Shown here: in pieces, positions 13,104 to 56,532 of the stretch | Layout of the letters: every line of letters starts with the position of its first letter | Position numbering within the stretch: position 1 is the first letter of the stretch | DNA from: Candidatus Shapirobacteria bacterium | GTDB taxonomy: Bacteria; Patescibacteriota; Microgenomatia; UBA12405 | Direction: 5' to 3' | Length of the DNA stretch: 64,000 bases | Assembly (NCBI GenBank): GCA_041665485.1 | Contig: JBAYIT010000003.1 | Coordinates: 67,146-131,145, forward strand | Position numbers and translations under genes: made by a program | Notes under the pieces: generated by a model | Database searches by the model: none | Told to the model about the DNA's origin: nothing | Seen by the model: only the letters and a program-made list of their open reading frames with translations

Positions 13104-13805
13104 CTACATTCCATCAATTTCGTATCTACTTGTTTTAGATCGATACCGGCAAAACTCGCAGTCTTTATTTGGTGGTGGCAGTCGGTCGTCGGTCAAGGTC
13201 TTTGCTAATTTGCTAATTGTTCCTTCAATCCAATCTCGGTTGCCCACATAGGGAATTATTTTTATCCTAAATTCTAGCTTTGCGTCAAACGCCTCATTAT
13301 CACTTCTACCGTTAACATAGACAAAATAACCGGTGTTACTTACTTCAAAGCCGTTATTAGCCAAAAGCCATTGATAAATCTCCATCTGTCTTCGGTAACT
13401 GTCGTGCCACGGGCTATCAGTTAGTTCTACCTCGCCCTCTTTGGCCGTCGACTTGTAATCTACTACAAATAACTTTTTCTCTTTATCAACCCAAATATCA
13501 TCCACTGCTCCAAAAAATTCAATCTCCGTTTCCGGGTGGTAAAAACTAACTCCCTTAAAATTATTCCGCCATTTATCCATATTTTCATGATCAAATGGCA
13601 CTGCCTCAATTCCGTAAGCCGTCATTAATGGGTGCGGTTCATGTTTGGTTCGGTAGATATCAAATTCTTTTTTAAGCAATCGATCCACTTCTGAATTAAG
13701 AGTAAACGGCATTCCTCCTGGTTGCTTTATTTTCAACACCACGTCGAAATAAAAACATCTTGGGCACCGCACAAACAATTCAATTTTCGACCTCGACAAT
13801 CTCAT
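13104..13805 (-). CDS. PD-(D/E)xK nuclease, Cas4-like with 4-Cys cluster (stand-alone, no CRISPR nearby)
   Basis: An N-terminal CPRC and a C-terminal CEFC bracket a VVDYKS (D..K) nuclease core. This is the Cas4/AddB/DUF83 architecture. Confidence 0.55.
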   Translation of the reverse strand: MRLSRSKIELFVRCPRCFYFDVVLKIKQPGGMPFTLNSEVDRLLKKEFDIYRTKHEPHPLMTAYGIEAVPFDHENMDKWRNNFKGVSFYHPETEIEFFGAVDDIWVDKEKKLFVVDYKSTAKEGEVELTDSPWHDSYRRQMEIYQWLLANNGFEVSNTGYFVYVNGRSDNEAFDAKLEFRIKIIPYVGNRDWIEGTISKLAKTLTDDRLPPPNKDCEFCRYRSKTSRYEIDGM

Positions 13806-38544: not shown

Positions 38545-39021
38545 ATGTTTAAACTGTTTAATCGTCAAAATAGTCAAGATCTCTTACGCTCAAGTCTTTA
38601 CGATGAAAGAACTTTTTATCGTCAATTCATACGGGACTTAGAAAACAGTAAAAAAGAGGTGGTTATCGAAAGTCCGTTCATCACTTCGAGCCGAATGAGC
38701 CATCTTACCCCCATCTTCACCAACTTAGTAAGAAGGGGAGTAAAAGTCTACGTTTTAACTCGAAATCCCAAAGAACATACCGCCATCTATGAGCAACAAT
38801 CAGAAACCGAAATACGTAAGTTTGAAATATTAGGTGTCCAAGTTCTCATCTGTACGGGAAATCATCACCGCAAGCTTGCCATAATCGACCAGGGCATACT
38901 TTGGGAGGGAAGTCTTAATATTTTGTCTCAAACAAAAAGCCGTGAGATTATGAGGCGTATGGAGAGCAAGACGCTTGCCATAGAAATGTTTAATTTTTTA
39001 AAGTTAAAAAAGTTCCTATAA
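38545..39021 (+). CDS. PLD-family (single HKD) Nuc-like nuclease
   Basis: The HKD motif is NHHRKLAIIDQGILWEGSLN (H.K....D......GS.N). Confidence 0.65.
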   Translation: MFKLFNRQNSQDLLRSSLYDERTFYRQFIRDLENSKKEVVIESPFITSSRMSHLTPIFTNLVRRGVKVYVLTRNPKEHTAIYEQQSETEIRKFEILGVQVLICTGNHHRKLAIIDQGILWEGSLNILSQTKSREIMRRMESKTLAIEMFNFLKLKKFL

Positions 39022-43189: not shown

Positions 43190-43435
43190 AAAATACGACT
43201 AAAGGGATTCGGACTGCCGTAATTGACGTAGGGACTCTTAAAAGTAAGTTTGAAGTAAGGGAGTTTGACGAATTCCTGAATTTTTATTGTTTTTGGCGCC
43301 GGCATCATTTTTGAAGTTTAAGGTGGTCATTTATTACTAGTAGTGTCAAGGTTGTCATGGCGCCAAGACAATTGAATATCTGACTTCAAAAAATAGAACC
43401 ACACTTAGAATGAACCGTTCGTCAGGGTTGTAATT

Positions 43436-43449
43436 TCCCGATATCGGGA
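43436..43449. promoter_or_regulatory. Perfect 14-bp palindrome TCCCGATATCGGGA immediately upstream of the HTH gene (candidate operator)
   Basis: The palindrome was read from the sequence. Its half-site CCGATA also forms the palindrome at 20805..20822. Confidence 0.3.
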
Positions 43450-43454
43450 TATAA

Positions 43455-44387
43455 TTGGTCATGTCTGTACTACTAAAAATACCAGGTTACCTTACTCTAT
43501 CTGAAGCTGAAGAACGCTACAAAGTGAAAGCTGACACTTTGAAGAAAAAATGTCAAAACGGAAAAATTAAAGGAGCCGTAAAACAGGGGAAAACTTGGTT
43601 TGTTCCTAGTATCCCCAATATTGATCCAAATTTACCAATTGTAGATAACTACCCTGGATTAAATTTTGATTCCGCCTATAAATCAAATATTCTTTTATAC
43701 GAAGCTGAAGATGAAGCTCAAAATTATTTCCAATCAAAATTTAATAGTTATATTTACATTTGGGAGTATGGGTATTATTTTGTCACCTTGGCTTTTAATC
43801 ACTCTTCCTTGGAAAGGTCTTATCTTCCACTGGCTTCCTTTATAACAGAAGCCCATGGCGCATTACGAGAATCCTTCTTGTTGAATCTTAAGGGTTATGC
43901 TCCTGGTTCTTTTGCATTACTTAGGAAGACCCACGAGAATACGCTAAAAGCCCTGGCTGGTAAAATAAAACCAGCTGTGATTTGGACTATAGCCCCCGAA
44001 GGTAACATTCAAAAGGCAGAGAGTGTTATTGGTATTCAGCTTAAAAGTGTGTGGATATTGGGATCAAGCTTTGCACATTCGAATTTACTGAAACTTTTTA
44101 AAGCAAAACAAGATATGGACAATAACGTTTCCGAGCTAGGAGTGACATATGGTCCACAAATTGACGAGAAACAGTTTAGGGCGGCGTCTAATTGTTCAAT
44201 TTTCTGGCTTTACGTTTTAATCAAATTCTTGCCACTAATATTTCCCGGTCAATTAAGTGACTATTGGATGTCAAAACAAGACGAGTCAGCAAAGATGATG
44301 AAAGATTATATTGTTTCGACTGGTGGTTTAAAAAGAGAAATCGAATCTATTGATAGGGCGGTAACTAACTTGAAAAAACAAAAGTAA
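43455..44387 (+). CDS. Protein with N-terminal AlpA/Xis-like (HTH_17) DNA-binding domain; C-terminal domain unknown
   Basis: The N-terminus, LTLSEAEERYKVKADTLKKKCQNGKIKGAVKQGKTWFVP, fits the excisionase/AlpA HTH pattern. Confidence 0.45.
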   Translation: MVMSVLLKIPGYLTLSEAEERYKVKADTLKKKCQNGKIKGAVKQGKTWFVPSIPNIDPNLPIVDNYPGLNFDSAYKSNILLYEAEDEAQNYFQSKFNSYIYIWEYGYYFVTLAFNHSSLERSYLPLASFITEAHGALRESFLLNLKGYAPGSFALLRKTHENTLKALAGKIKPAVIWTIAPEGNIQKAESVIGIQLKSVWILGSSFAHSNLLKLFKAKQDMDNNVSELGVTYGPQIDEKQFRAASNCSIFWLYVLIKFLPLIFPGQLSDYWMSKQDESAKMMKDYIVSTGGLKREIESIDRAVTNLKKQK

Positions 44388-44413
44388 TTCCCTCGATGTC
44401 GAAAGATTGATGC

Positions 44414-45682
44414 TTATTGATCTATCTTTATAGTATCTTCTTCCCCTTCAGGTAATTCCAGCATATCAATTTTTGGTAAGGCGGTACCAATCAATCCCTG
44501 AAGATCACCATAAATACCGGCGGTGTTGAGATAAACCTTTTGCATATTTTTTTCTTCTTTTTCCCACTTTTTGGTGAAATAGGCTTTTTCGATATTAAGT
44601 TCTTTTTGTCGACTAGTAAAATATTCCAACCAAACTTCAATTCTTTGTTTGAAGTCGTTACTAGTCAAATAGTTGTAAACAATCTCGGACTTTTTACCCC
44701 TGTCTTCACCTGACGTTCTGGCATTGCTTAGGTCAATCAATTGACTACGGAGGATAGTTGTTAGTGCGATAACTGAATTAAAGTTGACCACCATGACACC
44801 ATCGCGAAGGCCGAATGTTTTTATATCTTCAGGCATAACAATAGAAACGATAACCGCCAAATCAGCTTTTTCCCTTCTTTTGTCATCTTTTAGTTTTGGT
44901 ATCCAAGTATCAGTCCAATTTTTGGTTCTTTTTGATTCCCACACAATCGTCCCACAAACTTTGCCATAGTTATTTTTAACTCTTTGGATAACGTCGGCGC
45001 CATTATCACCCTTGGGAACTGGAAGAATATCATCATAAATAAATGCTTGACGCAATAATTCCTCAAGTTCCACTTCAAGTATTTCACCCTGTGATTGTTG
45101 TGAACCTTGTTGAAGTTTTCTGGTTAAACCGTCAATCGCCTTTTCGGCATCTGATAATTTTTTGTCTTTTTCCGCTATTTGTAACTTGTACTTGTCACCC
45201 AATTGACCCGTAACTTCTTGAGATACTTTTTGGGTAATCTCCTGTTCTTTTTTCATCATATCCAACTCAAAGGCTTTCTTTTCGTCCTCAAAACTCTGTT
45301 TTTCTTTCATCAGTTCAACCTGATCTTTTCGCAACTCCTCCAATTTAGTATCTTTTTGCTTTAACACTTCTTTTAAACCATCGACTTCGGCAGATGTTTC
45401 CTTGACCGCTTCTTCTTTAGCTCTCTTTTCGATTTCAACTTTTTCTGTTTTTAGTTTTTCTTCGACTTGACGATTGACGACGCCAATCAAATCAAGTTTG
45501 GCTGCTTCAATCTTTTGAGCTTTTTCTGTCAGCGCCTTTTCTTTTTCGCTGATTTCCAAATCCTTCTGTTTTTGCTTGGCTTCGTATTCTAGGCGATATT
45601 TTTCTTCTAGTTGATGGCTCAACGCTTCATCCGGTAAAAATTCAAAACTACATTGTGGACATTTTATTTTTTGATTTGTCAT
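44414..45682 (-). CDS. DUF2130-like protein: N-terminal zinc ribbon (CPQC), long coiled coil, C-terminal PD-(D/E)xK-like domain
   Basis: The N-terminus has KCPQCSFEF. A coiled coil rich in E/K/Q spans roughly residues 30-200. The C-terminus, ...PKGDNGADVIQRV...GTIVWESKRTKNW, carries D...E.K. Confidence 0.5.
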   Translation of the reverse strand: MTNQKIKCPQCSFEFLPDEALSHQLEEKYRLEYEAKQKQKDLEISEKEKALTEKAQKIEAAKLDLIGVVNRQVEEKLKTEKVEIEKRAKEEAVKETSAEVDGLKEVLKQKDTKLEELRKDQVELMKEKQSFEDEKKAFELDMMKKEQEITQKVSQEVTGQLGDKYKLQIAEKDKKLSDAEKAIDGLTRKLQQGSQQSQGEILEVELEELLRQAFIYDDILPVPKGDNGADVIQRVKNNYGKVCGTIVWESKRTKNWTDTWIPKLKDDKRREKADLAVIVSIVMPEDIKTFGLRDGVMVVNFNSVIALTTILRSQLIDLSNARTSGEDRGKKSEIVYNYLTSNDFKQRIEVWLEYFTSRQKELNIEKAYFTKKWEKEEKNMQKVYLNTAGIYGDLQGLIGTALPKIDMLELPEGEEDTIKIDQ

Positions 45683-48222
45683 TTTTTTAATAATTTTATT
45701 GTACCTTTTAATGCATTAAACTTTTCAATTTCAGCCTTTAAATTTGACGATTCAGGAGTATTACCTACGGTGTCATCCGAATGTAAATGACCTTCAATGT
45801 ATTCTGATAAACGACTATATGTTTCACATATTTCTATTGTAATTGCTGGAGTTACAATCACATTTTTTAAACTGTCTATACTTATCCTTTCTTCCCATCT
45901 TTTTACAACTTTATTAAATAATTCATTTACTATCAGATGTTCGTAACATGTTCTCAAAAGACTAAAACCGTCTTTAATAATCTTTTCATTTTCTGATCCA
46001 TTCACAGTAAGGGATTGGTTGTACAGTACCGACACTTCATCACTGTTTTTGTAACGACTTTCGTCCCCTGGCCCGTCATTATTAGCAATAATGCCAGGGA
46101 TACCATTTATTTTTTTGATCCAATGAAAAGAAGTATCTATTTTTCGCAACTCCGCTTTTTTCCGCAAAAAGAAGAGAAAAATTGGATCGTGAGTAAAGAT
46201 AATTACTTGTTTTAACTCGCTTAGGTCAGTTAACCTTGTCGCGATTTTTTCTTTTCTTTCTAAGTCTAGGGAGGTAACAGGATCGTCGAAAATCATCCCA
46301 TAATTATTTGGACATAATGTATTTTCTGTAACGAAGTCTGCGATTGAGGTGACTTTTTGTTCACCTTCGCTTAATACCTTATCCGGTTGCCTGCCACAAA
46401 TTTGAAGTTGCCGGTATGATTTACCTTTATCTCCTGATTGATTAATAGCTATACCAAATCCGGCGTCGAGTAGAGTACATTCTGCATTAAATATGTCTTT
46501 ATATTTTTGATCTACCAATTTTCTATATAGTTCAGAATGTTTTAGAGTTATCTTTGTTGTGTCTAATTCTTTGATTCCGTTTCTAAAGTTGTTACTAATT
46601 CTAAGATTTCTAAGATGTAATTTAATCTGTTGAAGTAAATCAGAATAAATTTGTTTATTTTTTAGGGTCTCCAGTGTTGTATTGATATTCTCGATTTCTT
46701 TTGTTTTGTCTGCCTTTGTTAGCTTGTCAATTTCAGTTTGAATCTTGATTACAGACTTATTCAAGTTATAAAATCTTTTATAAAGTCTAGAAGTTTTAGT
46801 CCAATCACCCACGTTAATATTGGCTAATAATTGGATTTTTAGTCGACTTAACAATTTTGAATATTTTATTAGTTTTACCAGAATAGCTTTATCATTATCT
46901 TCCAACCATTTGTAAACTACTGTACCTTCAGACACCAATACAGTATCCAGTGCTTGAAGTTCTAGTTCCAAATTTTTTAATATGGTCTCATCATATTTCA
47001 ACTTAGTTTCGAGTGCATTTGATAATAATTCCCAATATCTTTCAACTAACTTTACCGACTCAGGTGAAAGTGGCTGCCAACAAAATATACATGGGTCTCC
47101 AACTTTTGGATATACATAGCCATTGCGCTTGATAAAATCTTGACCAGCGACAAGGAAATTTTTCCATTTTTCATTACCTACACCATCAATGTCTTTATTC
47201 TTAAAATCTTGCACCCCTCTTTTCAACAAAAGTGATTTATTATTTTTAATTGACCTTATGAGAACTTTAATATTATTTCTTACCTGTAAATTCAAGTTTA
47301 TTTTTGCCTGAATAAGTATTTGCTGGGCTTGGAGAATACCTTTTTTTACCACCTCTAACTCATCAAGTTTTCTTTTTATATCTAGTGCTACCAAAATTTG
47401 CTTTTCTTTCTCTAGTGACTTTGCTTTGTCTTTTTCAATATTTGTAATTTCATATTTTTTCAGTTCTTCATCGGTAGTTGTCGCCTTTATTCCGATAATA
47501 AATGTTTTTACCTCTGAATCACCAGAAAAATGTATGGAGAAGTCGATTTCGTCGTTATACTTTTTAAGATTTTCTTCGGCTAGTACTTTTATTTCACTAA
47601 AAACTGTCGCTAATTTTTCGAAATAATCTAGTCCCTGTGGTTTGAACGTTAATTGATTTTTGTCGTCAAGATGAACGCGAACGCTTTTGTTATCGAAGAC
47701 AGAAAAGCAGTCAAATCTGCCGTCTGCTTTATCGTTTGGAAATTCCAAGACGAATTCTTCACTATCTTCACTAGTAAATGTAAATTTTCCGTGGGGTTCA
47801 ATTGAAGTATCTTTAAATACGTTTGGCAAGATTTCCATATCCCCTCGGGAAATAAATGAGTTATTCAGTAATCTGATGTACCCAGTCTTGCCTGATCCGT
47901 TGTTTCCGTAAATTACAGTTAAATTCTTTGAAAATTCAATTTTTTGATTTGTAGCCAAGGCATTGGCAACTACTTCCTCAAGTCTTTTCAAATAAACACG
48001 ACTATTGCCTTTATCTGTTGCAACCTTGTCGATCAGAACTGCTTCTGGTTTAGATTCTGCTGGTTTTGATAACTTATGCTCCTCAAGAAAGTATTTGAAT
48101 ATTACCGCAAGTTCAATGTTTTTATCGTTTAAGATTAATCGAGACGTATATTGCACCCAATATGGTTGTTGCTTCACCCACGCAACAATTTCCTGATTTA
48201 CATCCAGTTCGCTGTCAATCAC
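45679..48222 (-). CDS. AAA_13/Rad50-SbcC-like ABC ATPase with coiled-coil insert and CxxC zinc-hook; RloC/PrrC-like candidate
   Basis: Walker A is VIYGNNGSGKTGYIRLL. The middle has about 450 aa of coiled coil with CIFC at its centre. The signature is LSEGEQKV and Walker B/D-loop is MIFDDPVTSLD. A C-terminal domain of about 170 aa carries R-x3-E (LLRTCYEH) and His residues. A 4-nt overlap joins it to the downstream gene. Confidence 0.6.
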   Translation of the reverse strand: MIDSELDVNQEIVAWVKQQPYWVQYTSRLILNDKNIELAVIFKYFLEEHKLSKPAESKPEAVLIDKVATDKGNSRVYLKRLEEVVANALATNQKIEFSKNLTVIYGNNGSGKTGYIRLLNNSFISRGDMEILPNVFKDTSIEPHGKFTFTSEDSEEFVLEFPNDKADGRFDCFSVFDNKSVRVHLDDKNQLTFKPQGLDYFEKLATVFSEIKVLAEENLKKYNDEIDFSIHFSGDSEVKTFIIGIKATTTDEELKKYEITNIEKDKAKSLEKEKQILVALDIKRKLDELEVVKKGILQAQQILIQAKINLNLQVRNNIKVLIRSIKNNKSLLLKRGVQDFKNKDIDGVGNEKWKNFLVAGQDFIKRNGYVYPKVGDPCIFCWQPLSPESVKLVERYWELLSNALETKLKYDETILKNLELELQALDTVLVSEGTVVYKWLEDNDKAILVKLIKYSKLLSRLKIQLLANINVGDWTKTSRLYKRFYNLNKSVIKIQTEIDKLTKADKTKEIENINTTLETLKNKQIYSDLLQQIKLHLRNLRISNNFRNGIKELDTTKITLKHSELYRKLVDQKYKDIFNAECTLLDAGFGIAINQSGDKGKSYRQLQICGRQPDKVLSEGEQKVTSIADFVTENTLCPNNYGMIFDDPVTSLDLERKEKIATRLTDLSELKQVIIFTHDPIFLFFLRKKAELRKIDTSFHWIKKINGIPGIIANNDGPGDESRYKNSDEVSVLYNQSLTVNGSENEKIIKDGFSLLRTCYEHLIVNELFNKVVKRWEERISIDSLKNVIVTPAITIEICETYSRLSEYIEGHLHSDDTVGNTPESSNLKAEIEKFNALKGTIKLLKK

Positions 48223-48807
48223 CTAATACCTCCATATTTTTTGGTTTCATCTTCCAATTGTCTCATGGCCTTATTCTACCGCCAAAGATGATAATTATCA
48301 GACAATCAGTCTAGTAGTGACTAGTGTATCGTAATTAAATTGACGTAGAGGAGAAATTTAAACTTACTTAATGTTGTTGACGTTATATAACAGTGTCTTC
48401 ACCTTGGTGGTCGGCCGGACTCGACAAAAACGTTCTCCAGTGGATGCTGGATAACGTGAAATAAACGCAATCGCCAGAGGGGGAAAAAGAATCCGCCCTC
48501 TCTAATTGTTAATTCAGTCTACACAAAAAAATATGTTAATTGTTTAATCTTTCATGAAAAAACCAACTAAAGCTCAACTAAGCCGGGCCGGTAAAGATCT
48601 GCGGAATCCTCACACCAGAGAGGTGAAAGAAAGGAAAGCGACACAAACACTCGTCGCAGGTAGGAAGAAAAAATAGAGAGATCGAATTGTAGCCCATTTT
48701 CATATTTATAGATAAAATATTATTATTTGGAATAATTCAATAACAAATACAAACATGACATAGAATGATATATGGCGCGCAATCCGTGAATCAGATAGAC
48801 TGTCTAT

Positions 48808-49902
48808 ATGCAAAAAAGAAAGGGGGGTAAACCCAGAATATTATCTTTATTTTCCGGGTGCGGAGGGCTGGACTTAGGATTCGTACAAGAAGACTTTAGG
48901 ATTGTTTGGGCAAATGATTTTTATCATCCTGCTTGCGAAACATATAAGAACAACTTTGGTGACCACATTTTCGAAAGAGATATTACCGAAGTCGATTTTA
49001 AAAATCTTCCGGACTGCGATATTATCACGGGAGGGTTTCCTTGTCAGGATTTTTCAATGATTTGGAAGCGGGGAGGTATCGGCACCGATAGGGGCAATTT
49101 ATATAAATATTTTGTTAAAGCAGTATCCGCAAAGTTACCCAAAATATTTGTTGCAGAGAATGTTAAAGGTCTCCTCACCGCGAATAAAGGAATGGCGATA
49201 AAACAAATCGTTGAAGATTTTCAAAAGATCGATCATTCGGGTTATAGAATTTATATTAATCTATATAACTTTGCAGAATACGGAGTACCTCAATTAAGAG
49301 AAAGGGTCATTATTGTGGGTGTAAGGAGCGACATCCCCTTTAAGTTTCGTAAACCTGCTCCAATCCGTAGTCAAAATAATTACGTGACCTCTAAAGAAGC
49401 CCTTAAAGACGTTGAAAAAGTTGTATATAACAATGAGCACATAAATATAATGGAAAGGACTAAAAAAATAATAAGTTTAATTCCGCCGGGAGGAAATTTT
49501 ACCGATATACCAAAAGACAGCCCTTATTACGTAAAGGGAATGATAAGCCACGTATATAGGAGACTCCATCCGGACAAGCCCTCGACAACGATAATTGCAG
49601 GCGGTGGTGGCGGTACATGGGGTTATCATTTCAATGAACCTAGACCATTAACAAACAGAGAAAGAGCTCGATTATTCGGATATCCGGACGATTTCATATT
49701 CACAGGTTCTGTCGCTGAAGTTAGAAAGCAAATTGGTAACTCAGTTCCGCCTCCGGGGGCCAGAGCAGTAGCGAAAGAAATAAAAAAGCTCTTTAAAGAA
49801 ACGTTTACGCCGGTAAATGTGAACAATTTAAGACCATTATCCGGGGATGCGTTAAAATACATTAGTTATGATGAATCGGGAGAGCTTAAACTAAAAAAAT
49901 AA
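48808..49902 (+). CDS. DNA (cytosine-5)-methyltransferase
   Basis: Motif I is LFSGCGGLDLGF, motif IV is GGFPCQDFS, motif VI is ENVKGLL and the motif IX/X region is RERARLFGYPDDFIF. Confidence 0.9.
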   Translation: MQKRKGGKPRILSLFSGCGGLDLGFVQEDFRIVWANDFYHPACETYKNNFGDHIFERDITEVDFKNLPDCDIITGGFPCQDFSMIWKRGGIGTDRGNLYKYFVKAVSAKLPKIFVAENVKGLLTANKGMAIKQIVEDFQKIDHSGYRIYINLYNFAEYGVPQLRERVIIVGVRSDIPFKFRKPAPIRSQNNYVTSKEALKDVEKVVYNNEHINIMERTKKIISLIPPGGNFTDIPKDSPYYVKGMISHVYRRLHPDKPSTTIIAGGGGGTWGYHFNEPRPLTNRERARLFGYPDDFIFTGSVAEVRKQIGNSVPPPGARAVAKEIKKLFKETFTPVNVNNLRPLSGDALKYISYDESGELKLKK

Positions 49903-49903
49903 T

Positions 49904-50920
49904 ATGCTATGGAATAATGTCGACACTTTAGGCGGAGATTTTATAAATCAAGTAGACACAGAGTTTGGCGATGCCCTTGGAGTAACAATCGCTTCGGGAT
50001 ATGTTTCTTTGGATATTATCAATAAGTATTATTCTAATTTTCAAACAATTTCACAAAACGGAGGGTCGTCAAGATTGTTGGTTGGAATGGCCTTTTATGA
50101 GGGATTGTCAGCAAATAAACTGTCATTGTTGACTAGTCTTAATAATCAATTAAAACAAACAAATGAAAATAACGGAGTATTTGTGAGCTACAATGGAAAA
50201 TTCCATGGGAAAATATACCAGTTCGACAAAGACGCAGGAAAATCCTACTATTTAGGATCGTCGAATTTTTCCAGAAGCGGTTTATCTGGAAACATTGAAT
50301 GTACAGCATCCATTTCTGATTCGGACACACAATCGAGACTAAGTACATTTATAGGCTACTTATTCTTGCCAGAAAATGCCATCCATATTGATAAGGCGGA
50401 AATTGTAGTACCCGGAAGTTCAGAATATCGACAAAAAATGGCGATTACTCTCGACGATCTTGAAAAATACGATCCAGCAACTGTCGATAAGTCGATCCTC
50501 CCAATTTTTGAATTCCCTCTTTCGCGTATTGCCAATAAAGAAAAGTCAAATTTAAACGCGTATTTTGGGAAGGGTCGATGGTCAAGGGCAACTGGAAAAA
50601 TCGTTCCTAGGCCCTGGTATGAAGTCGAATTAATAGCCGACAGTAGTGTTCGAGGTACTCCGTTATACCCTAGAGGCGATTTTAAAGCATATACCGATGA
50701 CGGATATATTATCCCAATGGTAACCAACGGAGACTACGATAAAAATATAAGATCCAAAAGTAATTTAAAGATACTTGGCCAATGGATAAAGAACAAACTT
50801 CAAAAAAGCGGTGCATTACTCCCGTTAATGCCGGTCACTCAAGATACTTTGGACGCATATGGACGAAGTTCTATAAACTTCTACAAAATAAGGGATGGTA
50901 AATACTACATGGAGTTTTAA
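49904..50920 (+). CDS. PLD-family restriction endonuclease (BfiI/NgoAVII-like: N-terminal HKD catalytic domain + C-terminal DNA-binding domain)
   Basis: The HKD motif is HGKIYQFDKDAGKSYYLGSSNFS. It lies directly downstream of the MTase with a 1-nt spacer, and the product is 338 aa. Confidence 0.5.
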   Translation: MLWNNVDTLGGDFINQVDTEFGDALGVTIASGYVSLDIINKYYSNFQTISQNGGSSRLLVGMAFYEGLSANKLSLLTSLNNQLKQTNENNGVFVSYNGKFHGKIYQFDKDAGKSYYLGSSNFSRSGLSGNIECTASISDSDTQSRLSTFIGYLFLPENAIHIDKAEIVVPGSSEYRQKMAITLDDLEKYDPATVDKSILPIFEFPLSRIANKEKSNLNAYFGKGRWSRATGKIVPRPWYEVELIADSSVRGTPLYPRGDFKAYTDDGYIIPMVTNGDYDKNIRSKSNLKILGQWIKNKLQKSGALLPLMPVTQDTLDAYGRSSINFYKIRDGKYYMEF

Positions 50921-50948
50921 TCGGGCATCTTTATAATTCATTCCATAA

Positions 50949-51350
50949 ATGGATAACCTGATAAAAGAGCAACGCAGTTTAAACATGTCGCGGATAAAAA
51001 GTTCTAATACTAAATTAGAACAAAAATTCTTTAAACTCCTTAATGAACGGCACATCGATTATATTGACCATCCAAACCTATTTGGAAAGCCAGACTGCCA
51101 AATAAACAATGTATTGATCTTTATAGATAGTGACTTCTGGCACGGCTGGAATTTTAAACGATGGAAAGAAAGATTGCCAAAAGAGTACTGGAGATTAAAA
51201 ATTGCACGTAATATTAATCGTGATCATCACAAATTTAGAAAATTAAAAGACGAAGGATATGTTGTAATTAGGATTTGGGAACATAATCTAAAAAAAGAAG
51301 ATAAAATGAACAAATTACTCCATAACATCACACAGAATAACAAAGGTTAG
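50949..51350 (+). CDS. vsr: Very-short-patch repair endonuclease Vsr
   Basis: Vsr-family signatures are present: RSLNMSRIKSSNTKLE...GKPD...IFIDSDFWHGW. Confidence 0.8.
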   Translation: MDNLIKEQRSLNMSRIKSSNTKLEQKFFKLLNERHIDYIDHPNLFGKPDCQINNVLIFIDSDFWHGWNFKRWKERLPKEYWRLKIARNINRDHHKFRKLKDEGYVVIRIWEHNLKKEDKMNKLLHNITQNNKG

Positions 51351-51355
51351 ATAAA

Positions 51356-51982
51356 TTACGGCCCAATCTCTCCCACAAACGTTCTTGGATTCACTGGTAT
51401 TCCAAATACATTAATTTGGAAATGTAAATGTGGTCCAGTTGACCAGCCAGTTGTTCCTTCTTTGCCAATCACATCCCCGATTTTTACCTTTTGGCCTTTA
51501 TAAACCAACACTTTATCTAAGTGGCCATATAAGGAAGTCACATTATTCCCATGGTCAATAATTATGTGCTTGCCGTAGCCTATCGCCGTTTGAGCCGCAT
51601 AAGTTACTGTTCCATCCATAAAGGGAGTAATATCATCGCCAGTTTTTCCTTCGGGGTTAGCAATATCAATCCCAGTATGAAATAGTTGGTAGGGGAGATG
51701 AGGTTTGCCAAATTCCAAAGTTATTACCCCCTTAACCGGCCAGACCATTGGTGAAGAAATAACCTTAACAACCTTGCCACTGGCTGGATCATGAATGTCA
51801 ACCGTGTTGGTGGCTGAATCGACTGTCGCCAGCTTATCAGAAACAATGTTTATGCCCGTCTGGGTCAAAATAATAACGGCGATTACCGGCAACAATAAAA
51901 CCAAAAGAAAGGCAAAGATTACAATTTTTAACTCCCCTCGATACGACCAAAGGGCAAAAATGGTTCCAATTGGCATGGGCAT
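51356..51982 (-). CDS. M23-family metallopeptidase (LytM-like), membrane-anchored; likely T4SS-associated cell-wall hydrolase
   Basis: The zinc ligands are HTGIDI...HGNNVTSLYGHL...GPHLHF (H.GxD and HxH). Confidence 0.8.
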   Translation of the reverse strand: MPMPIGTIFALWSYRGELKIVIFAFLLVLLLPVIAVIILTQTGINIVSDKLATVDSATNTVDIHDPASGKVVKVISSPMVWPVKGVITLEFGKPHLPYQLFHTGIDIANPEGKTGDDITPFMDGTVTYAAQTAIGYGKHIIIDHGNNVTSLYGHLDKVLVYKGQKVKIGDVIGKEGTTGWSTGPHLHFQINVFGIPVNPRTFVGEIGP

Positions 51983-51983
51983 A

Positions 51984-53783
51984 TTAGCTATAAATTTCTC
52001 TTGGGTCAGTCGTCAGTAGGGGATGTTCTTTTTCCGAAGCCACCACCTTTAAAGCCACATGGTTTTGATCGGCAATAATCAATGCCTCACCCCGATCGCA
52101 AGTTAACAAGAAATGTTGTTCATAACCGCTTAAATGAAACTCTTCCGCCACTTTCTTAATCGTCGTCGTATCCTGTTTCATTAACACTCGCAGTGATGAT
52201 TGGGAGGCAATCGCTCGGCCGTATTCGGAACTCAAAAAATCATTGGCTTGTTGGGAAATAATCGTTACCCCCAGATAATACTTTCTTGCCCGTCTTACTA
52301 ATCCCGAGATATAGCGCGCACTTTCTTCCTGTTGTAAAAGTATCCACCCCTCATCAATTACCAATATTCTTTTTTGCGGATGAGTCTTTACTTGTGAATT
52401 AACAAAATTAGCAATCGTCAACATCATAATTGGTCGCAAGGTTTCACTAAGATCTTTAATATCAAAAACTACCAATCGGTTATCAAGTTCAATATTAGTT
52501 TGGGAATCAAACACAGAAGACAATGACCCTTTGACAAATCTTTCTAATCGGTCGCCTAAATCTTTCTGTTTCAGCCGCTTAAGTGTTTTGTAAAAATCTT
52601 TAAGTAGCGGGAACTCCTGTTTCTTTTTCGCCTTATTCTTGCCGTTTAGGGTATAGCCAAACTCTTTGTAAGTCAGAATAATCACCCTATCTACCACCGC
52701 TTTTTCTTCCGATGATAACCCTCCAACCATCAGGGAGATTATTTCTGTTAAATCCTGAATGTGTTCCGACAAACCATTTTCACCGGTCACAGTCGTGGTT
52801 GAAAAATCAAAGGGGTTGATTTTTTCTTTTGATTTAGCCGAAAGCTGGATATAAACACCATCAACCGAGGCCGCTAATTGTTTATATTCCCGCTCTGGAT
52901 CAACCACAATTACCCGAGTCCCCTGCATCAATTGTCTTAAAATTTCCACCTTGGCGGTATAGCTTTTGCCAGATCCCGATTGAGCAAAGATAATACTATT
53001 GGCGTTAGTCAGAGAAAAACGGTCAATTATCACCAATGAATTATTTGACCGATTAACCCCATAGAGTATCCCCGACTCTTGAACCAATTCCGACGACACA
53101 AACGGAAATGTCAGTGCCGCCGATGAGCTGTCTAAGTTTCGTTTTTGATCTAAAAGGTTTTGGCATCGGGGCAAAATAGATTGCAACCCCTCAACTTGTT
53201 GAAAGGTGGCCGTTTTTATATAAAACATTCGGGTTGACATCACTGTTTCTAAAAGAGTCGTCAATTTTTGTAATTCAGATAAAGAATCAGCCGAAATCGT
53301 CATATATATTGAGACTTGAAATAGCTTTTCCTGCCCCCTCAAAATCTTATCTTTTAACTCCATGGCCGATTCCAGTGGATCAGTAATTTCGCTCCCCACC
53401 ACCTTACCATCTTTAAACATGTTTCTTTTAGTCGATTCCAACTCCGTGATTTTTCGGTTTAACTTAGGTAGGGCCAAGAGGGGATCGACTTGTTCTATGT
53501 GATAGGCAATATCAATATTATGGTTAAAGTTAATCAGCATTGATAACCAGCCGGTTGTCGCCACATAGGGGTAGCCGGAAATAAACAGGGTTCTAATATA
53601 ACGATTACCGATTTGCAAGTAACTCGAATCTTCTTTTAGTCCGGAATAGGAAATTAAATCCACCTGATCTTGTTCGCCAAAATAGAAGTTAACCGATTTT
53701 TTTGGCGTTTGGATTTTTACCAATTTACGCTTTCTTTTTAGAATCGGCTTCATTTTTTGGATCCGTTTTTTTAAATTAAACAT
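51984..53783 (-). CDS. VirB4/TrbE-like type IV secretion ATPase, C-terminal (ATPase) portion
   Basis: Walker A is FAQSGSGKSYT and Walker B is RILVIDEGW. The DUF87-like context is typical of VirB4. Confidence 0.7.
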   Translation of the reverse strand: MFNLKKRIQKMKPILKRKRKLVKIQTPKKSVNFYFGEQDQVDLISYSGLKEDSSYLQIGNRYIRTLFISGYPYVATTGWLSMLINFNHNIDIAYHIEQVDPLLALPKLNRKITELESTKRNMFKDGKVVGSEITDPLESAMELKDKILRGQEKLFQVSIYMTISADSLSELQKLTTLLETVMSTRMFYIKTATFQQVEGLQSILPRCQNLLDQKRNLDSSSAALTFPFVSSELVQESGILYGVNRSNNSLVIIDRFSLTNANSIIFAQSGSGKSYTAKVEILRQLMQGTRVIVVDPEREYKQLAASVDGVYIQLSAKSKEKINPFDFSTTTVTGENGLSEHIQDLTEIISLMVGGLSSEEKAVVDRVIILTYKEFGYTLNGKNKAKKKQEFPLLKDFYKTLKRLKQKDLGDRLERFVKGSLSSVFDSQTNIELDNRLVVFDIKDLSETLRPIMMLTIANFVNSQVKTHPQKRILVIDEGWILLQQEESARYISGLVRRARKYYLGVTIISQQANDFLSSEYGRAIASQSSLRVLMKQDTTTIKKVAEEFHLSGYEQHFLLTCDRGEALIIADQNHVALKVVASEKEHPLLTTDPREIYS

Positions 53784-54396
53784 AGTTGTTCTCCAATAGT
53801 TTTTGTAACGTTTGTCCGGTTAATGCCTGGGTTTTAATCTGTTCGGAATTATAGAAACTGTAAAATAAATCGAGTATCTCCAGGCTACTTAAAGTTTTGG
53901 CTTTCATCCCCAGTTTTTCCAAACCGCGAACGATAATATCTGTCAATAAATGTAGCTGTTCTTTCACTAACTGAAAGTCTTTATTTTTATCAGCATGCCT
54001 GTAGGGGACAACGATATAAAATTTTCGGGAAAGTATTTTGTTTCCGGCCACCAGGTTGGTTATAAAGTCACAATAGTTATCAATCTGATTCCGATAAGCT
54101 TTTTCTTTCTCGTTTTTTTTCGTTAGAGAAATTTCCTGTAAATAGCGGTCAATATCTACCTCACGAACCCGAACTAATATTTGCAACTGGCAAGGTAGGG
54201 AATTTAAAAAGTTTTGGAAACCATCAATTAATACATCTTGCTCCTCTTCGCTTTTCAGTTCAAAATTAATCGAAGAAGTTTCTAATAATACTCGATATTC
54301 TTGATTGAGAAGCACTAAAATATCGTCCTTAACTTCCTTAATTTCTATTTGTCGCCGACTACTTAATTTACTTTTTGATTTGTTTAAGAGCCACAT
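53776..54396 (-). CDS. Probable N-terminal portion of split VirB4
   Basis: Its 206 aa, added to the 599 aa ATPase, give about 805 aa, which is the typical VirB4 length. The two ORFs overlap by 8 nt in different frames. There is no independent motif. Confidence 0.35.
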   Translation of the reverse strand: MWLLNKSKSKLSSRRQIEIKEVKDDILVLLNQEYRVLLETSSINFELKSEEEQDVLIDGFQNFLNSLPCQLQILVRVREVDIDRYLQEISLTKKNEKEKAYRNQIDNYCDFITNLVAGNKILSRKFYIVVPYRHADKNKDFQLVKEQLHLLTDIIVRGLEKLGMKAKTLSSLEILDLFYSFYNSEQIKTQALTGQTLQKLLENNYV

Positions 54397-54880
54397 GCAA
54401 GCCTCCTTGTTTGCCTAACTTAAAACTTAAACTATTTTTTTGATTGTTGATGACATGTAAAAACTTTACCGATTCAACTTGGGCTAATTCGTTTTCTTTT
54501 CTGTCAACCGGCCTGGCAGAATTTACAGTCACTAATTTCCTTTTCTTTTCCATAATTGGTATCTCAATATCTCGAAGATAATTATCGTTCTTATTAAAAA
54601 TAAAATACATCGGTCGAACATTGAATCGCCATAAAATTAATAGCCAACTTAAAACCACCCTCCCCTTAATTCGGAGAGACAGAACTAAACACACAAACAA
54701 AACGATGACTATCAATGGCAGTTTGTACCAAGCCAATTTCATTACCGGTGGCACAAAAGCAAAAAGAACCGTTGTCCAAAAAATCGGGATCATCAGAATA
54801 AATATCTGCGTTATATTTAAGTTCCCGGCAATCTTATCTTCAACTGTGGTTATTTGAGCTGGAATTACCGTTGTCCTCAT
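54368..54880 (-). CDS. T4SS small membrane protein (VirB3/PrgI-like, tentative)
   Basis: Two or three TM helices are predicted. The gene sits immediately upstream of VirB4 on the same strand, which is the VirB3 position. Confidence 0.35.
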   Translation of the reverse strand: MRTTVIPAQITTVEDKIAGNLNITQIFILMIPIFWTTVLFAFVPPVMKLAWYKLPLIVIVLFVCLVLSLRIKGRVVLSWLLILWRFNVRPMYFIFNKNDNYLRDIEIPIMEKKRKLVTVNSARPVDRKENELAQVESVKFLHVINNQKNSLSFKLGKQGGLHVALKQIKK

Positions 54881-56184
54881 GCGTGAACCTCCTTTCGGGG
54901 CGATTTAGCCGTTGCTTTGGCGGTGGCCGAGTTTCTGGAGATCGAAGACGAATTGTCAGCCGTTATAACGTTGATTATTTGGCCTCCTAACTTTTTTAAC
55001 TTTCCATTACCAGAGGTATAAAACATCATGTTAGTTATTAATGAAGGGGTCTTAAGTAAGGTTAAAAATAGACCAATGGCCACGGCAATCGATATCAATG
55101 AGTTATTCGAGTGTTCCGGTAGGGCCAGAAACGACGACGCCAACTGAATCACCACCACATGCACAAAAACTATAAAAATAGTCGCCACATATGATTTAGT
55201 TGCAATTTCTGCAAAATCCGAAAACTTAGGTATTGTCCATAAAAGAAATACAAAAGGAGAAAGTACTGCCCCCAATGACACAAAAATTAACCTGGTTATA
55301 TACATGAAAAGTAAAACAATAGCCACGATTAAAAAGATAATTAAAAATATAAGAGTAATTAAAGGGGTGGTTCCGGTTATCAGAGTAGTTGGGTTGATAA
55401 TATTGACCACCCACGAGTGACTTAAGCCACCAGTCGAATTCAATACCGCACTAACCAAAGCGTTACAAGTAATGATTGTATAATCGGCCAAAAACAATGA
55501 GATGTTGGCGCCCAAAAAGAATAAGCCAAGCCGAGGCAAAATTTGTTTAAACTCGACTTCTTCAAAGCCAAAAGTATCAGCACTCATCAAATGAAGCCCC
55601 AAAACCGCCGCTACCACCACAAACAGCGAATCAACGATCCCCAACGATATCATCCAAAAATTAACGATTACCTGATTTGAGAGCAAATTCGGGGTAGTAG
55701 TCAGATAACCAAGGATGCCGTCAACAATCGGTCTGGTTGCACTCTCCACAATGTTTTGCATGAAAGCAGACATGGCATCAATTAATACTTGGGTTAATCC
55801 GTCACTTGGTTTAACTGAATTAAGGGGGGCGAGAGTGATCGCCGGAGTAGTTCCGCTACCCGACCCTGACGACAAAGCGTTGCTAAAAAGGGAAATTAAA
55901 ACTCCGGAGACGAGCACTATCACCAGGCCCATCATCGTATTTCGAATCGTTTGTTTGGCCGAGATTAATGATTGTGGATTACCACTTGAGGTTAAATATT
56001 GATAACCAGCTTTGATTAAGAAAAACACCCCCGCTATTCCCGCAATTGCCGTAATAATCGTTAAAGTATCATTGGTATAAGTCGTTATTTCACTTGCCGT
56101 CGTGACTGCTAGAACTTGCCTGGAGGCCGCCAAACTCATGCTTAAAAACCCAATCACAGATACTAGAACTCTTCGTAAGAACAT
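54877..56184 (-). CDS. Fusion of VirB2-like pilin N-domain with VirB6/TrbL-like polytopic membrane domain
   Basis: The first ~100 aa, IITAIAGIAGVFFLIKAGYQYLTSSGNPQSL...LVIVLVSG, parallel the adjacent pilin (GLISAGFFVWGGIGYITSSGNPEAL...LAIVLGA). At least six TM helices follow. Confidence 0.5.
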   Translation of the reverse strand: MFLRRVLVSVIGFLSMSLAASRQVLAVTTASEITTYTNDTLTIITAIAGIAGVFFLIKAGYQYLTSSGNPQSLISAKQTIRNTMMGLVIVLVSGVLISLFSNALSSGSGSGTTPAITLAPLNSVKPSDGLTQVLIDAMSAFMQNIVESATRPIVDGILGYLTTTPNLLSNQVIVNFWMISLGIVDSLFVVVAAVLGLHLMSADTFGFEEVEFKQILPRLGLFFLGANISLFLADYTIITCNALVSAVLNSTGGLSHSWVVNIINPTTLITGTTPLITLIFLIIFLIVAIVLLFMYITRLIFVSLGAVLSPFVFLLWTIPKFSDFAEIATKSYVATIFIVFVHVVVIQLASSFLALPEHSNNSLISIAVAIGLFLTLLKTPSLITNMMFYTSGNGKLKKLGGQIINVITADNSSSISRNSATAKATAKSPRKEVHA

Positions 56185-56193
56185 AAGAACACT

Positions 56194-56532
56194 TTATTGA
56201 GTTGTTGAACCACCAAAAGCACCGGTGGCCAATTGGGTTACTACCGTGGAGAGAACAAAAGCTCCCAAAACAATGGCTAAACCAATTGCTGAATAAAGGA
56301 TTGTTTTCTTTGATCGGTCTAAAGCTTCTGGATTACCAGAACTAGTAATATAACCAATTCCTCCCCAGACAAAAAAGCCAGCCGAAATTAGACCAGCCAG
56401 GGTTACTAACACCTGTATCACTCCTTGGATAAAGGTTTCGATCTTAATAACATCGGCCGACACCGCCAAGGTGGGTGTTGCCAAGAGAAGGAAAGATAGT
56501 AATGTACCGGAAAGTACCATTATCTTTTTCAT
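56194..56532 (-). CDS. VirB2/TrbC-like T4SS pilin
   Basis: A signal peptide precedes two hydrophobic helices with a conserved GGIGYITSSGNPE loop. Confidence 0.55.
   Translation of the reverse strand: MKKIMVLSGTLLSFLLLATPTLAVSADVIKIETFIQGVIQVLVTLAGLISAGFFVWGGIGYITSSGNPEALDRSKKTILYSAIGLAIVLGAFVLSTVVTQLATGAFGGSTTQ

What the first reader, a model, noticed from the sequence alone, without database searches (positions are those of the whole stretch)
44414..48222. Two-gene candidate defence module: Rad50/RloC-like AAA_13 ATPase with CxxC zinc hook + DUF2130-like PD-(D/E)xK protein
The 847 aa ATPase has a split ABC head. Walker A is at residues ~100-110, and the signature and Walker B/D-loop sit ~600 aa later. 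Between them is a long coiled coil with a central CIFC that looks like a Rad50/RloC zinc hook. The C-terminal ~170 aa contain an R-x3-E pair plus His residues, which recalls the PrrC/RloC anticodon-nuclease triad; the spacing is not canonical. The partner gene overlaps it by 4 nt. It encodes a Zn-ribbon, a coiled coil and a putative restriction-endonuclease-fold domain. The pair sits between an Xis-like HTH gene and an m5C restriction-modification system, which is typical defence-island context. I cannot place this exact pairing in a named system, so it may be a new SMC/Rad50-like sensor plus nuclease module.
Basis: partly seen in the sequence, partly recalled or inferred. Interest (0 to 1): 0.8.

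Follow-up and report, generated by a model that had tools for sequence, protein, structure and literature searches.

The report
RloC-type anticodon nuclease plus DUF2130 nuclease
The large gene is a member of a known family of suicide-type antiviral enzymes (RloC-like tRNA cutters with a Rad50-like DNA-sensing head). The gene fused to its end encodes an unstudied DNA-cutting protein that turns up next to many different bacterial defence ATPases, so the pair is a modest new variant rather than a new kind of system.

Summary
Both ORFs are real and intact. They form an operon through an ATGA stop/start overlap.

**The 847-aa protein.** It matches the PADLOC candidate family PDC-S06 over its full length (E 1.8e-123). 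It also meets every motif criterion of the published RloC definition:
- ABC ATPase motifs.
- An invariant central CxxC.

**The pairing.** It is not family-wide: only 1 of 80 ATPase loci has DUF2130 nearby. It does recur, though. It is present at the closest homologue (48% identity), and about 6-8 of 80 DUF2130 loci carry an RloC-type neighbour. Other family members are followed by SbcD-like or RmuC nucleases.

A 96%-identical DUF2130 sits at the syntenic site without any ATPase, and other close orthologues follow unrelated ATPases.

**Verdict.** This is a known kind of ATPase (RloC-like) in a variable defence island, with a possibly Mre11-like optional DNase partner. It is a new variant of a known kind, of moderate interest.

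The parts
45679..48222 (-). 847-aa RloC-type (long-form, PADLOC PDC-S06) ABC ATPase / zinc-hook / C-terminal HEPN-like protein. GTG start with GGAGG 6 nt upstream.
   Evidence: ORF. PADLOC PDLC04891 at E 1.8e-123, residues 8-843. Invariant motifs. RBS.
47998..48222 (-). N-terminal domain of about 75 aa with invariant W15 and W22. Function unknown. By position it is absent from the 804-aa G. kaustophilus RloC.
   Evidence: Alignment A1. No Pfam hit. GkaRloC K44 versus K112 here. hhalign to short forms starts only at column 84.
47884..47925 (-). Walker A / P-loop (NLTVIYGNNGSGKT, residues 100-113).
   Evidence: Invariant G106, N108, G111, K112.
47080..47091 (-). CxxC (C378-I-F-C381). Putative zinc hook at the apex of the insert between the two ABC half-sites.
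   Evidence: Invariant in 26 sequences. Aligned to CPxC of short-form RloC-type proteins by hhalign. Pro/Gly-rich apex between Pro/Gly-poor arms.
46189..46374 (-). C-terminal ABC half-site: signature LSEGE (617-621), Walker B / D-loop FDDPVTSLD (645-653), Q672, H-loop H678.
   Evidence: Invariant columns. Matches to Rad50 heads 3qf7 (2e-10) and 5f3w.
45682..46050 (-). C-terminal HEPN-like helical domain (about residues 725-847) with R757 (45952-45954), E761 (45940-45942) and H812 (45787-45789).
44414..45682 (-). 422-aa DUF2130 protein: N-terminal CPxC knuckle, long helical/coiled region, C-terminal PD-(D/E)xK nuclease domain. The ATG overlaps the ATPase TGA (ATGA).
   Evidence: Pfam PF09903 at 6.2e-62. 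Alignment A2. Junction.
45650..45661 (-). C8-P-Q-C11, the only conserved cysteine pair of the partner. This is half a zinc site, not a full four-ligand ribbon.
   Evidence: Invariant C8, P9, C11 with no second invariant Cys/His pair.
44417..45109 (-). DUF2130 nuclease domain (residues 192-422): QGSQQxQGE motif, D230 (44993-44995), E249 (44936-44938), K251 (44930-44932).
48273..48323 (-). Two overlapping sigma-70-like promoter matches 50-100 nt upstream of the ATPase start. Consensus matches only.
   Evidence: The number of matches in the region is not above the shuffled expectation.
44389..44406 (-). Terminator-like hairpin 8 nt after the DUF2130 stop codon.
   Evidence: Consensus match only.
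48808..51350 (+). Divergently transcribed type II m5C R-M context, not shown to be part of the module: Dcm methylase 48808-49902, NgoFVII-like PLD restriction enzyme 49904-50920, Vsr 50949-51350.
   Evidence: Pfam DNA_methylase 2.9e-78, RE_NgoFVII plus RE_NgoFVII_C, Vsr 1.3e-12.
43455..44387 (+). Convergent 310-aa gene with a weak N-terminal HTH_17 / excisionase-like motif. Context only, and replaced by other genes in the syntenic relative L083.
   Evidence: Pfam HTH_17 1.7e-4, below cutoff. PHROG HTH 2.3e-7. blastn boundaries.

Best explanation
**What is shown.**
- The 847-aa gene encodes a long-form RloC-type protein. It has a Rad50-like ABC ATPase head split by a helical insert with a CxxC hook, followed by a C-terminal HEPN-like domain carrying an invariant Arg-x3-Glu...His triad.
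- It belongs to the family that PADLOC lists as the untested single-gene candidate PDC-S06.
- The downstream, translationally coupled gene encodes DUF2130: a CPxC knuckle, a long helical region and an intact PD-(D/E)xK nuclease domain.
- Both genes lie in a variable defence island beside a type II m5C R-M system.

**Inferred mechanism for the ATPase**, by analogy with G. kaustophilus RloC:
1. The hook keeps the RNase silent.
2. Binding of DNA, especially DNA ends, to the ATPase head drives ATP hydrolysis.
3. This releases the HEPN nuclease.
4. The nuclease cuts tRNA anticodon loops and shuts down translation in an infected cell.

**Further inference about DUF2130.** It may be an optional DNase partner that plays the role Mre11/SbcD plays for Rad50/SbcC. 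It would bind or cut invading or restriction-damaged DNA and supply or hold the DNA ends that the RloC head senses. In other genomes the same slot is filled by SbcD-like or RmuC nucleases, or is empty.
For: **ATPase identity.**
- PADLOC PDC-S06 at E 1.8e-123, full length.
- All ABC motifs, CxxC, R757, E761 and H812 are invariant across 26 homologues at 20-48% identity.
- Published RloC criteria: ABC motifs, CXXC, R-X3-E-X36-52-H, 658-897 aa, frequent GUG starts.
- Colinear with GkaRloC K44/C291/D572/R692/E696/H737, apart from an N-terminal extension of about 68 aa.
- hhalign gives 99.8% probability, E 2.2e-28, to short-form CxxC-plus-triad proteins over columns 84-718.
- Best PDB sequence relatives are Rad50 heads.
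- The family is R-M-linked or plasmid-borne: L081 type I, Chryseobacterium type III, Methylase_S in 4 of 41 neighbours, 234 plasmids.

**Partner.**
- Pfam 6.2e-62.
- Invariant D230, E249, K251.

**Coupling.**
- ATGA overlap with no separate SD.
- The pair is kept at the closest homologue, with 48% and 47% identity for the two proteins, inside a different R-M operon of type I.
- RloC-type genes adjoin DUF2130 in L090, L107, L117, L155 and L160, lie one gene away in L153, and 2 kb away in L055, in both gene orders.
- Other family members with all motifs intact are followed by SbcD-like nucleases (L041, L068, L019) or RmuC (L049).
Against: - No activity was tested.
- The C-terminal domain shows no significant profile similarity to that of the short-form RloC-type proteins (hhalign E 0.17).
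- I could not obtain an experimentally characterised RloC sequence for direct comparison.
- 79 of 80 family loci lack DUF2130 within 7 kb.
- The next homologue, P0003 (38%), lacks it.
- A 96%-identical DUF2130 sits at the syntenic site without any ATPase.
- 82-91%-identical orthologues follow unrelated ATPases.
- DUF2130 neighbours are very heterogeneous.
- An RloC with its own effector does not obviously need a DNase.
Confidence: 0.55

Rival explanations
1. The two genes are independent neighbours. DUF2130 is a resident gene, possibly a stand-alone nuclease defence or an RmuC-like recombination function, at the edge of a defence-island hot spot. The RloC-like ATPase is a self-sufficient single-gene system that was inserted upstream. 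The overlap only reflects compact Patescibacteria genomes.
For: - In the syntenic relative L083, DUF2130 is the only gene shared inside the variable segment (92.7% nt identity). Homology ends sharply at the ORF borders, and no ATPase is present.
- Orthologues at 82-91% identity follow unrelated ATPases: PDC-S46 and an LmuB-like protein.
- 79 of 80 ATPase loci lack DUF2130.
- PADLOC treats PDC-S06 as a single-gene candidate.
- On Staphylococcus plasmids the ATPase is solo.
- DUF2130 has more than 5,227 homologues, against 69 for the ATPase.
Against: - The same pair, with both proteins diverged to about 47-48%, recurs in a different R-M context.
- RloC-type neighbours occur in about 6-8 of 80 DUF2130 loci, in both orders and from two RloC subfamilies.
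- In all four CPR-type loci that have an upstream ATPase, the junction is an overlap or a gap of 8 nt or less.
- Family members elsewhere carry SbcD or RmuC nucleases in the same downstream slot.
Confidence: 0.33
2. One reading: a new SMC/Rad50-like sensor plus nuclease-effector system. The ATPase only senses, and DUF2130 is the DNase effector, as in Septu, PARIS or Lamassu. The C-terminal R/E/H motif would be structural or regulatory rather than an RNase site.
For: - ABC ATPase plus separate nuclease is a common defence design, as reviewed in the PADLOC embedding preprint.
- About 26% of the immediate downstream neighbours of DUF2130 are ABC ATPases of several families.
- The C-domain has no significant profile similarity to short-form RloC C-domains.
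Against: - R757, E761 and H812 are the only invariant residues of the C-domain across the family, and they have the published RloC spacing.
- Most family members have no nuclease partner at all, so the family must carry its own effector.
- The LmuB, PtuA and AriA hits cover only ABC motifs.
Confidence: 0.08
3. An ordinary housekeeping DNA-repair pair, SbcC/RecN-like ATPase with an RmuC-like nuclease, with no defence role.
For: - The best PDB relatives are Rad50 heads.
- There are weak RecF and RecN NCBIfam hits on single motifs.
- DUF2130 is widely conserved.
Against: - NCBIfam scores are far below the cutoffs, 27 versus 172 bits for RecF.
- The extra C-terminal triad domain is absent from Rad50 and SbcC.
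- The ATPase has a patchy distribution, is plasmid-borne and is R-M-embedded.
- The ATPase is absent from the syntenic close relative.
- DUF2130 neighbours are overwhelmingly defence genes.
Confidence: 0.04

Closest known systems
RloC (Davidov & Kaufmann 2008; G. kaustophilus RloC characterised)
   Same: - ABC ATPase motifs.
- Helical insert with a central CxxC.
- C-terminal Arg-x3-Glu-x(36-52)-His, here x50.
- Size in the 658-897 aa range, and a GUG start.
- Occasional R-M linkage.
- Colinear motif order with GkaRloC.
- ATPase/hook region homologous to short-form RloC-type proteins.
   Different: - An extra N-terminal domain of about 70-75 aa with invariant W15 and W22.
- The C-domain is not detectably similar in profile to the short-form C-domains.
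- An operonic DUF2130 nuclease partner is not described for RloC.
- The host is a Patescibacteria (Shapirobacteria) MAG.
- No activity data exist.
PADLOC PDC-S06 (untested single-gene phage defence candidate found by 'guilt by embedding' in BREX/DISARM/type I R-M)
   Same: - Full-length HMM match at E 1.8e-123.
- The closest homologue is embedded after a type I R-M.
   Different: PDC-S06 is defined as a single gene. Here, and in L081, a DUF2130 gene is translationally coupled to it. PADLOC has no model for DUF2130.
PrrC anticodon nuclease
   Same: - ABC NTPase N-domain plus a C-terminal Arg/Glu/His ACNase triad.
- Association with R-M systems.
   Different: - PrrC has no coiled-coil/CxxC insert.
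- Its triad spacing is x31.
- It is embedded in type Ic hsd loci.
- Here there is a hook insert, x50 spacing and a divergent type II m5C R-M.
Rad50-Mre11 / SbcC-SbcD
   Same: - Split ABC head with a CxxC hook.
- An operonic DNA nuclease partner.
- Some members of this same family are followed by genuine SbcD-like genes.
   Different: - Rad50 and SbcC lack the C-terminal triad domain.
- The partner here is a PD-(D/E)xK protein, not a calcineurin-like phosphoesterase.
- The distribution is that of a defence island, not of a core gene.
RmuC (PF02646)
   Same: The partner's architecture, an N-terminal coiled coil plus a C-terminal PD-(D/E)xK nuclease. RmuC itself follows a family ATPase in L049.
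   Different: The partner does not hit the RmuC model. It is Pfam DUF2130.

Membership tests
RloC | ABC ATPase motifs shared with PrrC (Walker A, signature, Walker B/D-loop, H-switch). | tested here: met
   All are invariant in 26 homologues. There are Rad50-head matches.
RloC | Central CXXC (zinc hook) inside a helical/coiled-coil insert that splits the ATPase. | tested here: met
   C378 and C381 are invariant and lie midway between Walker A (112) and the signature (618). They align to the CPxC of short-form proteins. The coiled-coil nature of the arms is only inferred, from Pro/Gly-poor arms and patchy heptad signal.
RloC | C-terminal Arg-X3-Glu-X36-52-His triad. | tested here: met
   R757-x3-E761-x50-H812, invariant.
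RloC | Sequence homology to other RloC-type proteins over the ATPase/hook region. | tested here: met
   hhalign A1 versus four short-form CxxC-plus-triad proteins: 99.8%, E 2.2e-28, columns 84-718. No experimentally characterised RloC sequence was available to me.
RloC | Homology of the C-terminal (ACNase) domain. | tested here: inconclusive
   hhalign A5 versus A9 gives E 0.17. Only the motif and the fold class agree.
RloC | HEPN fold of the nuclease domain (Anantharaman 2013). | tested here: inconclusive
RloC | Wobble-nucleotide-excising tRNase activity that is DNA- and ATP-activated and governed by the zinc hook. | not testable with these tools
   Biochemistry is needed (describe the assays).
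PADLOC PDC-S06 | Match to the family HMM. | tested here: met
   PDLC04891 at E 1.8e-123, residues 8-843 of 847. Three further PDC-S06 models hit at 1e-71 to 1e-101.
PrrC | Compact ABC NTPase without a hook insert, embedded in a type Ic hsd locus, with R-x3-E-x31-H. | tested here: not met
   There is an insert of about 500 aa with CxxC, x50 spacing, and no hsd genes in the window.
Rad50/SbcC repair ATPase | No C-terminal effector domain, an Mre11/SbcD partner, and core-genome conservation. | tested here: not met
   There is an extra conserved domain of about 150 aa. The partner is DUF2130. The ATPase is absent from the syntenic relative. RecF and RecN NCBIfam scores are far below cutoff.
Lamassu LmuB | LmuB HMM match plus LmuA (and LmuC) partners. 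| tested here: not met
   The LmuB hit is 3.8e-3 and covers only residues 93-119. No LmuA or LmuC is present nearby.
DUF2130 (PF09903), PD-(D/E)xK clan | Pfam model above the gathering score. | tested here: met
   209.6 bits against a cutoff of 26.7, E 6.2e-62.
DUF2130 (PF09903), PD-(D/E)xK clan | Catalytic D...(D/E)xK residues and a restriction-endonuclease fold. | tested here: met
RmuC | Match to PF02646. | tested here: not met
   There is no RmuC hit at E<=1.

The most novel reading that the evidence does not exclude
DUF2130 is a widespread, so far unstudied coiled-coil PD-(D/E)xK nuclease that acts as an interchangeable, Mre11-like DNase partner for many ABC-ATPase defence proteins. These include long- and short-form RloC, LmuB-like proteins, PDC-S46 and OLD/GajA-type ATPases. 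For RloC it would be the long-postulated DNA-tethering or end-generating partner that links DNA damage or restriction to anticodon-nuclease activation.
Probability: 0.25. Interest if true: 0.7.

Novelty: new variant of a known kind. Interest (0 to 1): 0.45.

Why it matters
RloC is a rarely studied abortive-infection enzyme, and how it is triggered in vivo is still unclear. DNA ends activate it in vitro, but double-strand breaks alone did not detectably do so in a natural host.

Several findings here give a testable idea for what feeds DNA ends to RloC:
- RloC-type genes are repeatedly coupled to DNA nucleases (DUF2130, SbcD-like, RmuC).
- The PADLOC candidate PDC-S06 fits the RloC definition.

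The work also flags DUF2130 as a likely defence-island gene that no defence catalogue I could query covers. The family has thousands of members.

Finally, it shows such systems in a reduced Patescibacteria genome, next to a type II m5C R-M.

Tried and rejected
- NCBIfam gave only sub-threshold single-motif hits for the ATPase and nothing for the partner.
- PHROGs gave nothing for either protein.
- PDB sequence searches found no solved RloC or PrrC, and nothing for DUF2130.
- The AFDB Foldseek library, which could have hit annotated PrrC or RloC models, was unavailable.
- I could not retrieve an experimentally characterised RloC sequence (G. kaustophilus or A. baylyi). I had to use motif criteria and uncharacterised short-form proteins found next to DUF2130 instead.
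- Profile-profile comparison of the C-terminal domains was not significant.
- My crude heptad-periodicity scan gave only a patchy signal, so the coiled coil remains inferred.
- HEPN/Toprim-NTD1 was considered for the N-terminal domain. I rejected it because that domain is about 240 aa, against about 75 aa here.
- The Lamassu, Septu, PARIS and Gabija readings were rejected, because those hits cover only ABC motifs.
- The viral-contig scans found both families sparsely, 14 and about 17 loci, but never together.
- Promoter and terminator scans were not above the shuffled expectation.
- Gene calls in fetched loci came from my own simple ORF script, so neighbour counts are approximate.

Full report
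**Observation**

The two ORFs exist exactly as described. 45679..48222 (-) encodes 847 aa from a GTG. 44414..45682 (-) encodes 422 aa from an ATG. The GTG is preceded by GGAGG at a 6-nt spacing, and the N-terminus aligns with the N-termini of homologues.

The junction reads ...AAAAAATGACA.... The partner's ATG overlaps the ATPase TGA (ATGA), and there is no obvious separate ribosome-binding site. Promoter-like matches lie 50-100 nt upstream of the ATPase, and a terminator-like hairpin lies 8 nt after the partner's stop. Such matches are not above chance for the region.

The ATPase is 100% identical to a hypothetical protein of a Candidatus Shapirobacteria MAG.

**The ATPase**

Pfam gives only weak hits: SMC_N at 4.6e-10, just under the cutoff, and AAA_23. 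This protein has no AAA_13 hit, although most homologues carry AAA_13. PADLOC is decisive: PDC-S06 at E 1.8e-123 over residues 8-843. PDC systems are untested candidates that were found embedded in BREX, DISARM or type I R-M loci.

An alignment of 26 homologues at 20-48% identity has these invariant residues:
- W15 and W22.
- Walker A: G106, N108, G111, K112.
- C378 and C381.
- S618-E-G-E621.
- D646, D647, P648, S651, D653.
- Q672 and H678.
- In the last 150 residues, only R757, E761 and H812.

Davidov and Kaufmann defined RloC by ABC motifs, a CXXC in a coiled-coil insert and Arg-X3-Glu-X36-52-His. The sizes are 658-897 aa and GUG starts are frequent. The window protein has x50 spacing, so it meets each criterion.

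The motif order is colinear with G. kaustophilus RloC (K44, C291, D572, R692, E696, H737), with an N-terminal extension of about 68 aa.

A profile of the family aligns with four short-form (699-790 aa) CxxC-plus-triad proteins at 99.8% probability (E 2.2e-28). The aligned region runs from the P-loop through the hook to the H-loop. The C-terminal domains, however, are not significantly similar (E 0.17).

The nearest solved sequences are Rad50 heads, and no RloC or PrrC structure exists.

The coiled coil itself was not modelled. The arms are Pro/Gly-poor and the apex around CxxC is Pro/Gly-rich.

**The partner**

- Pfam DUF2130 hits at 6.2e-62.
- Across 27 and 67 homologues, C8-P-x-C11, QGSQQxQGE (192-200), D230, E249 and K251 are invariant. 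This is an intact D...ExK site.
- Only one cysteine pair is conserved, so a full zinc ribbon is not evident.
- The literature I could search says nothing about its function beyond its listing as a PD-(D/E)xK family.
- PADLOC, NCBIfam and PHROGs have no model for it.

**Is it a two-gene module?**

Evidence against a dedicated module:
- Of 80 genome loci encoding relatives of the ATPase, only L055 has DUF2130 within 7 kb.
- The 38% homologue lacks it.
- DUF2130 has more than 5,227 homologues, against 69 for the ATPase.
- In L083 a 96%-identical DUF2130 sits at the syntenic site. NUDIX, AAA_33 and HD_4 lie on one side and an M23 peptidase on the other. DNA homology ends sharply at the ORF borders. 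A divergent SNF2/Eco57I/N6-MTase set takes the place of the ATPase and the Dcm R-M.
- Orthologues at 91% and 82% identity follow two other, unrelated ATPases. One is an LmuB-like protein with a CPLC hook and a C-terminal RNYSSH motif. The other is PDC-S46. Each lies behind a type ISP R-M gene.

Evidence for a link:
- The closest ATPase homologue (48%) is followed, with an overlap, by a DUF2130 that is 47% identical to the window's. That pair sits inside a type I R-M operon with PDC-S18 and Fic downstream.
- Among 80 metagenome loci of DUF2130, RloC-type genes lie immediately downstream in L107, L117, L155 and L160. One lies a gene away in L153. A long-form N-terminus starts 4 nt after DUF2130 in L090.
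- About 26% of immediate downstream neighbours are ABC ATPases of several families. The rest are mostly other defence genes: SIR2, OLD-TOPRIM, helicases, Schlafen, Cas1 and MTases.
- Family ATPases with every motif intact are followed by SbcD-like nucleases in L041, L068 and L019, and by RmuC in L049. Davidov's table also lists metallophosphoesterase or SbcCD as flanking genes for some RloCs.

**Interpretation**

The ATPase is a long-form RloC-type ABC/hook/HEPN protein, which is a known kind. By analogy with GkaRloC, DNA ends and ATP hydrolysis would release an otherwise hook-silenced anticodon nuclease. That step is inferred and was not tested.

The DUF2130 gene is a real nuclease gene and a habitual defence-island resident. 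Its coupling to RloC-type genes recurs but is optional. I judge a Rad50-Mre11-like cooperation the most likely reading (0.55, including the ATPase assignment). Mere adjacency at a defence hot spot is the main rival (0.33).

- The ATPase is not an ordinary SbcC, RecF or RecN.
- The pair is not core-genome conserved.

**Context**

The variable segment runs from about 43.3 to 51.35 kb. It lies between housekeeping-type genes (NUDIX, AAA_33 kinase, HD_4) and an M23 peptidase plus a T4SS-like cluster. It contains an HTH gene, the pair, and a Dcm/NgoFVII-like/Vsr R-M.

The family is also common on plasmids (234 records) and sparse in viral contigs, where the two genes never co-occur.

**Verdict**

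This is a new variant of a known kind, with interest 0.45. The most novel reading still open is that DUF2130 is a general, exchangeable DNase partner of ABC-ATPase defence proteins (p about 0.25).

Noticed in passing
L086-L165 (metagenome loci of DUF2130), L083-L085: DUF2130 (PF09903) looks like a defence-island gene in its own right. Its immediate neighbours are ABC ATPases (13 of 50 downstream; OLD/GajA-type 6-7), SIR2_2, SNF2/ResIII helicases, Schlafen, Cas1 and MTases. No defence catalogue I could query models it, and no paper I could search discusses its function.
   Followed up: partly
L085:4791-7220 and L084:5830-7992: Orthologues of the window's DUF2130 at 91% and 82% identity are translationally coupled to two unrelated ATPases behind type ISP R-M genes. 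One is an LmuB-like protein with a CPLC hook, a C-terminal RNYSSH (Rx4H, HEPN-like) motif and a terminal Cys cluster. The other is PADLOC PDC-S46 (E 1e-260). In L085, a Cas4-like PDDEXK_1 gene and DUF3800 follow.
   Followed up: partly
L041:9573-10799, L068:9580-10815, L019:9688-10944, L049:3174-4760: RloC-like (PDC-S06) ATPases with an intact triad are followed by SbcD-like metallophosphoesterases (gap of 4 nt, a 4-nt overlap, gap of 62 nt) or by RmuC (gap of 45 nt). This is a Rad50-Mre11-like gene arrangement in an anticodon-nuclease family.
   Followed up: partly
window 47998-48222 (-), residues 1-75 of the ATPase: A conserved N-terminal domain with invariant W15 and W22 has no Pfam match. 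By position it is missing from the 804-aa G. kaustophilus RloC and from the short-form proteins. Its function is unknown.
   Followed up: no
window 43282-51356 versus L083: This is a variable island at a conserved chromosomal site. Only the DUF2130 ORF is shared (92.7% nt identity, and homology stops at the ORF ends). The HTH gene, the ATPase and the Dcm/NgoFVII-like/Vsr R-M are replaced in L083 by SNF2, Eco57I-like, N6-MTase, HSDR_N_2 and FtsK-like genes.
   Followed up: yes
window 51356-56532 (-): An M23 peptidase is followed by a T4SS-like cluster: a TraG/VirB4-type P-loop ATPase at 51984-53783 and two VirB2/T4SS-pilin proteins at 54877-56184 and 56194-56532.
   Followed up: partly
window 48554-48676 (+): A 40-aa, very basic small ORF (MKKPTKAQLSRAGKDLRNPHTREVKERKATQTLVAGRKKK) lies in the 585-bp divergent spacer between the ATPase and the Dcm gene. 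It is not known whether it is expressed.
   Followed up: no
window 13214-13805: This stretch is 67% identical at DNA level to the Cas4-like PDDEXK_1 gene that follows DUF2130 in L085. A related nuclease gene therefore sits elsewhere in this genome.
   Followed up: no
window 38545-39021 (+): A small PLD-like (PLDc_2, 2.2e-11) protein lies at the point where G+C drops from about 0.40-0.50 to about 0.33-0.38. It may be a Nuc-type endonuclease at the edge of the low-GC segment.
   Followed up: no
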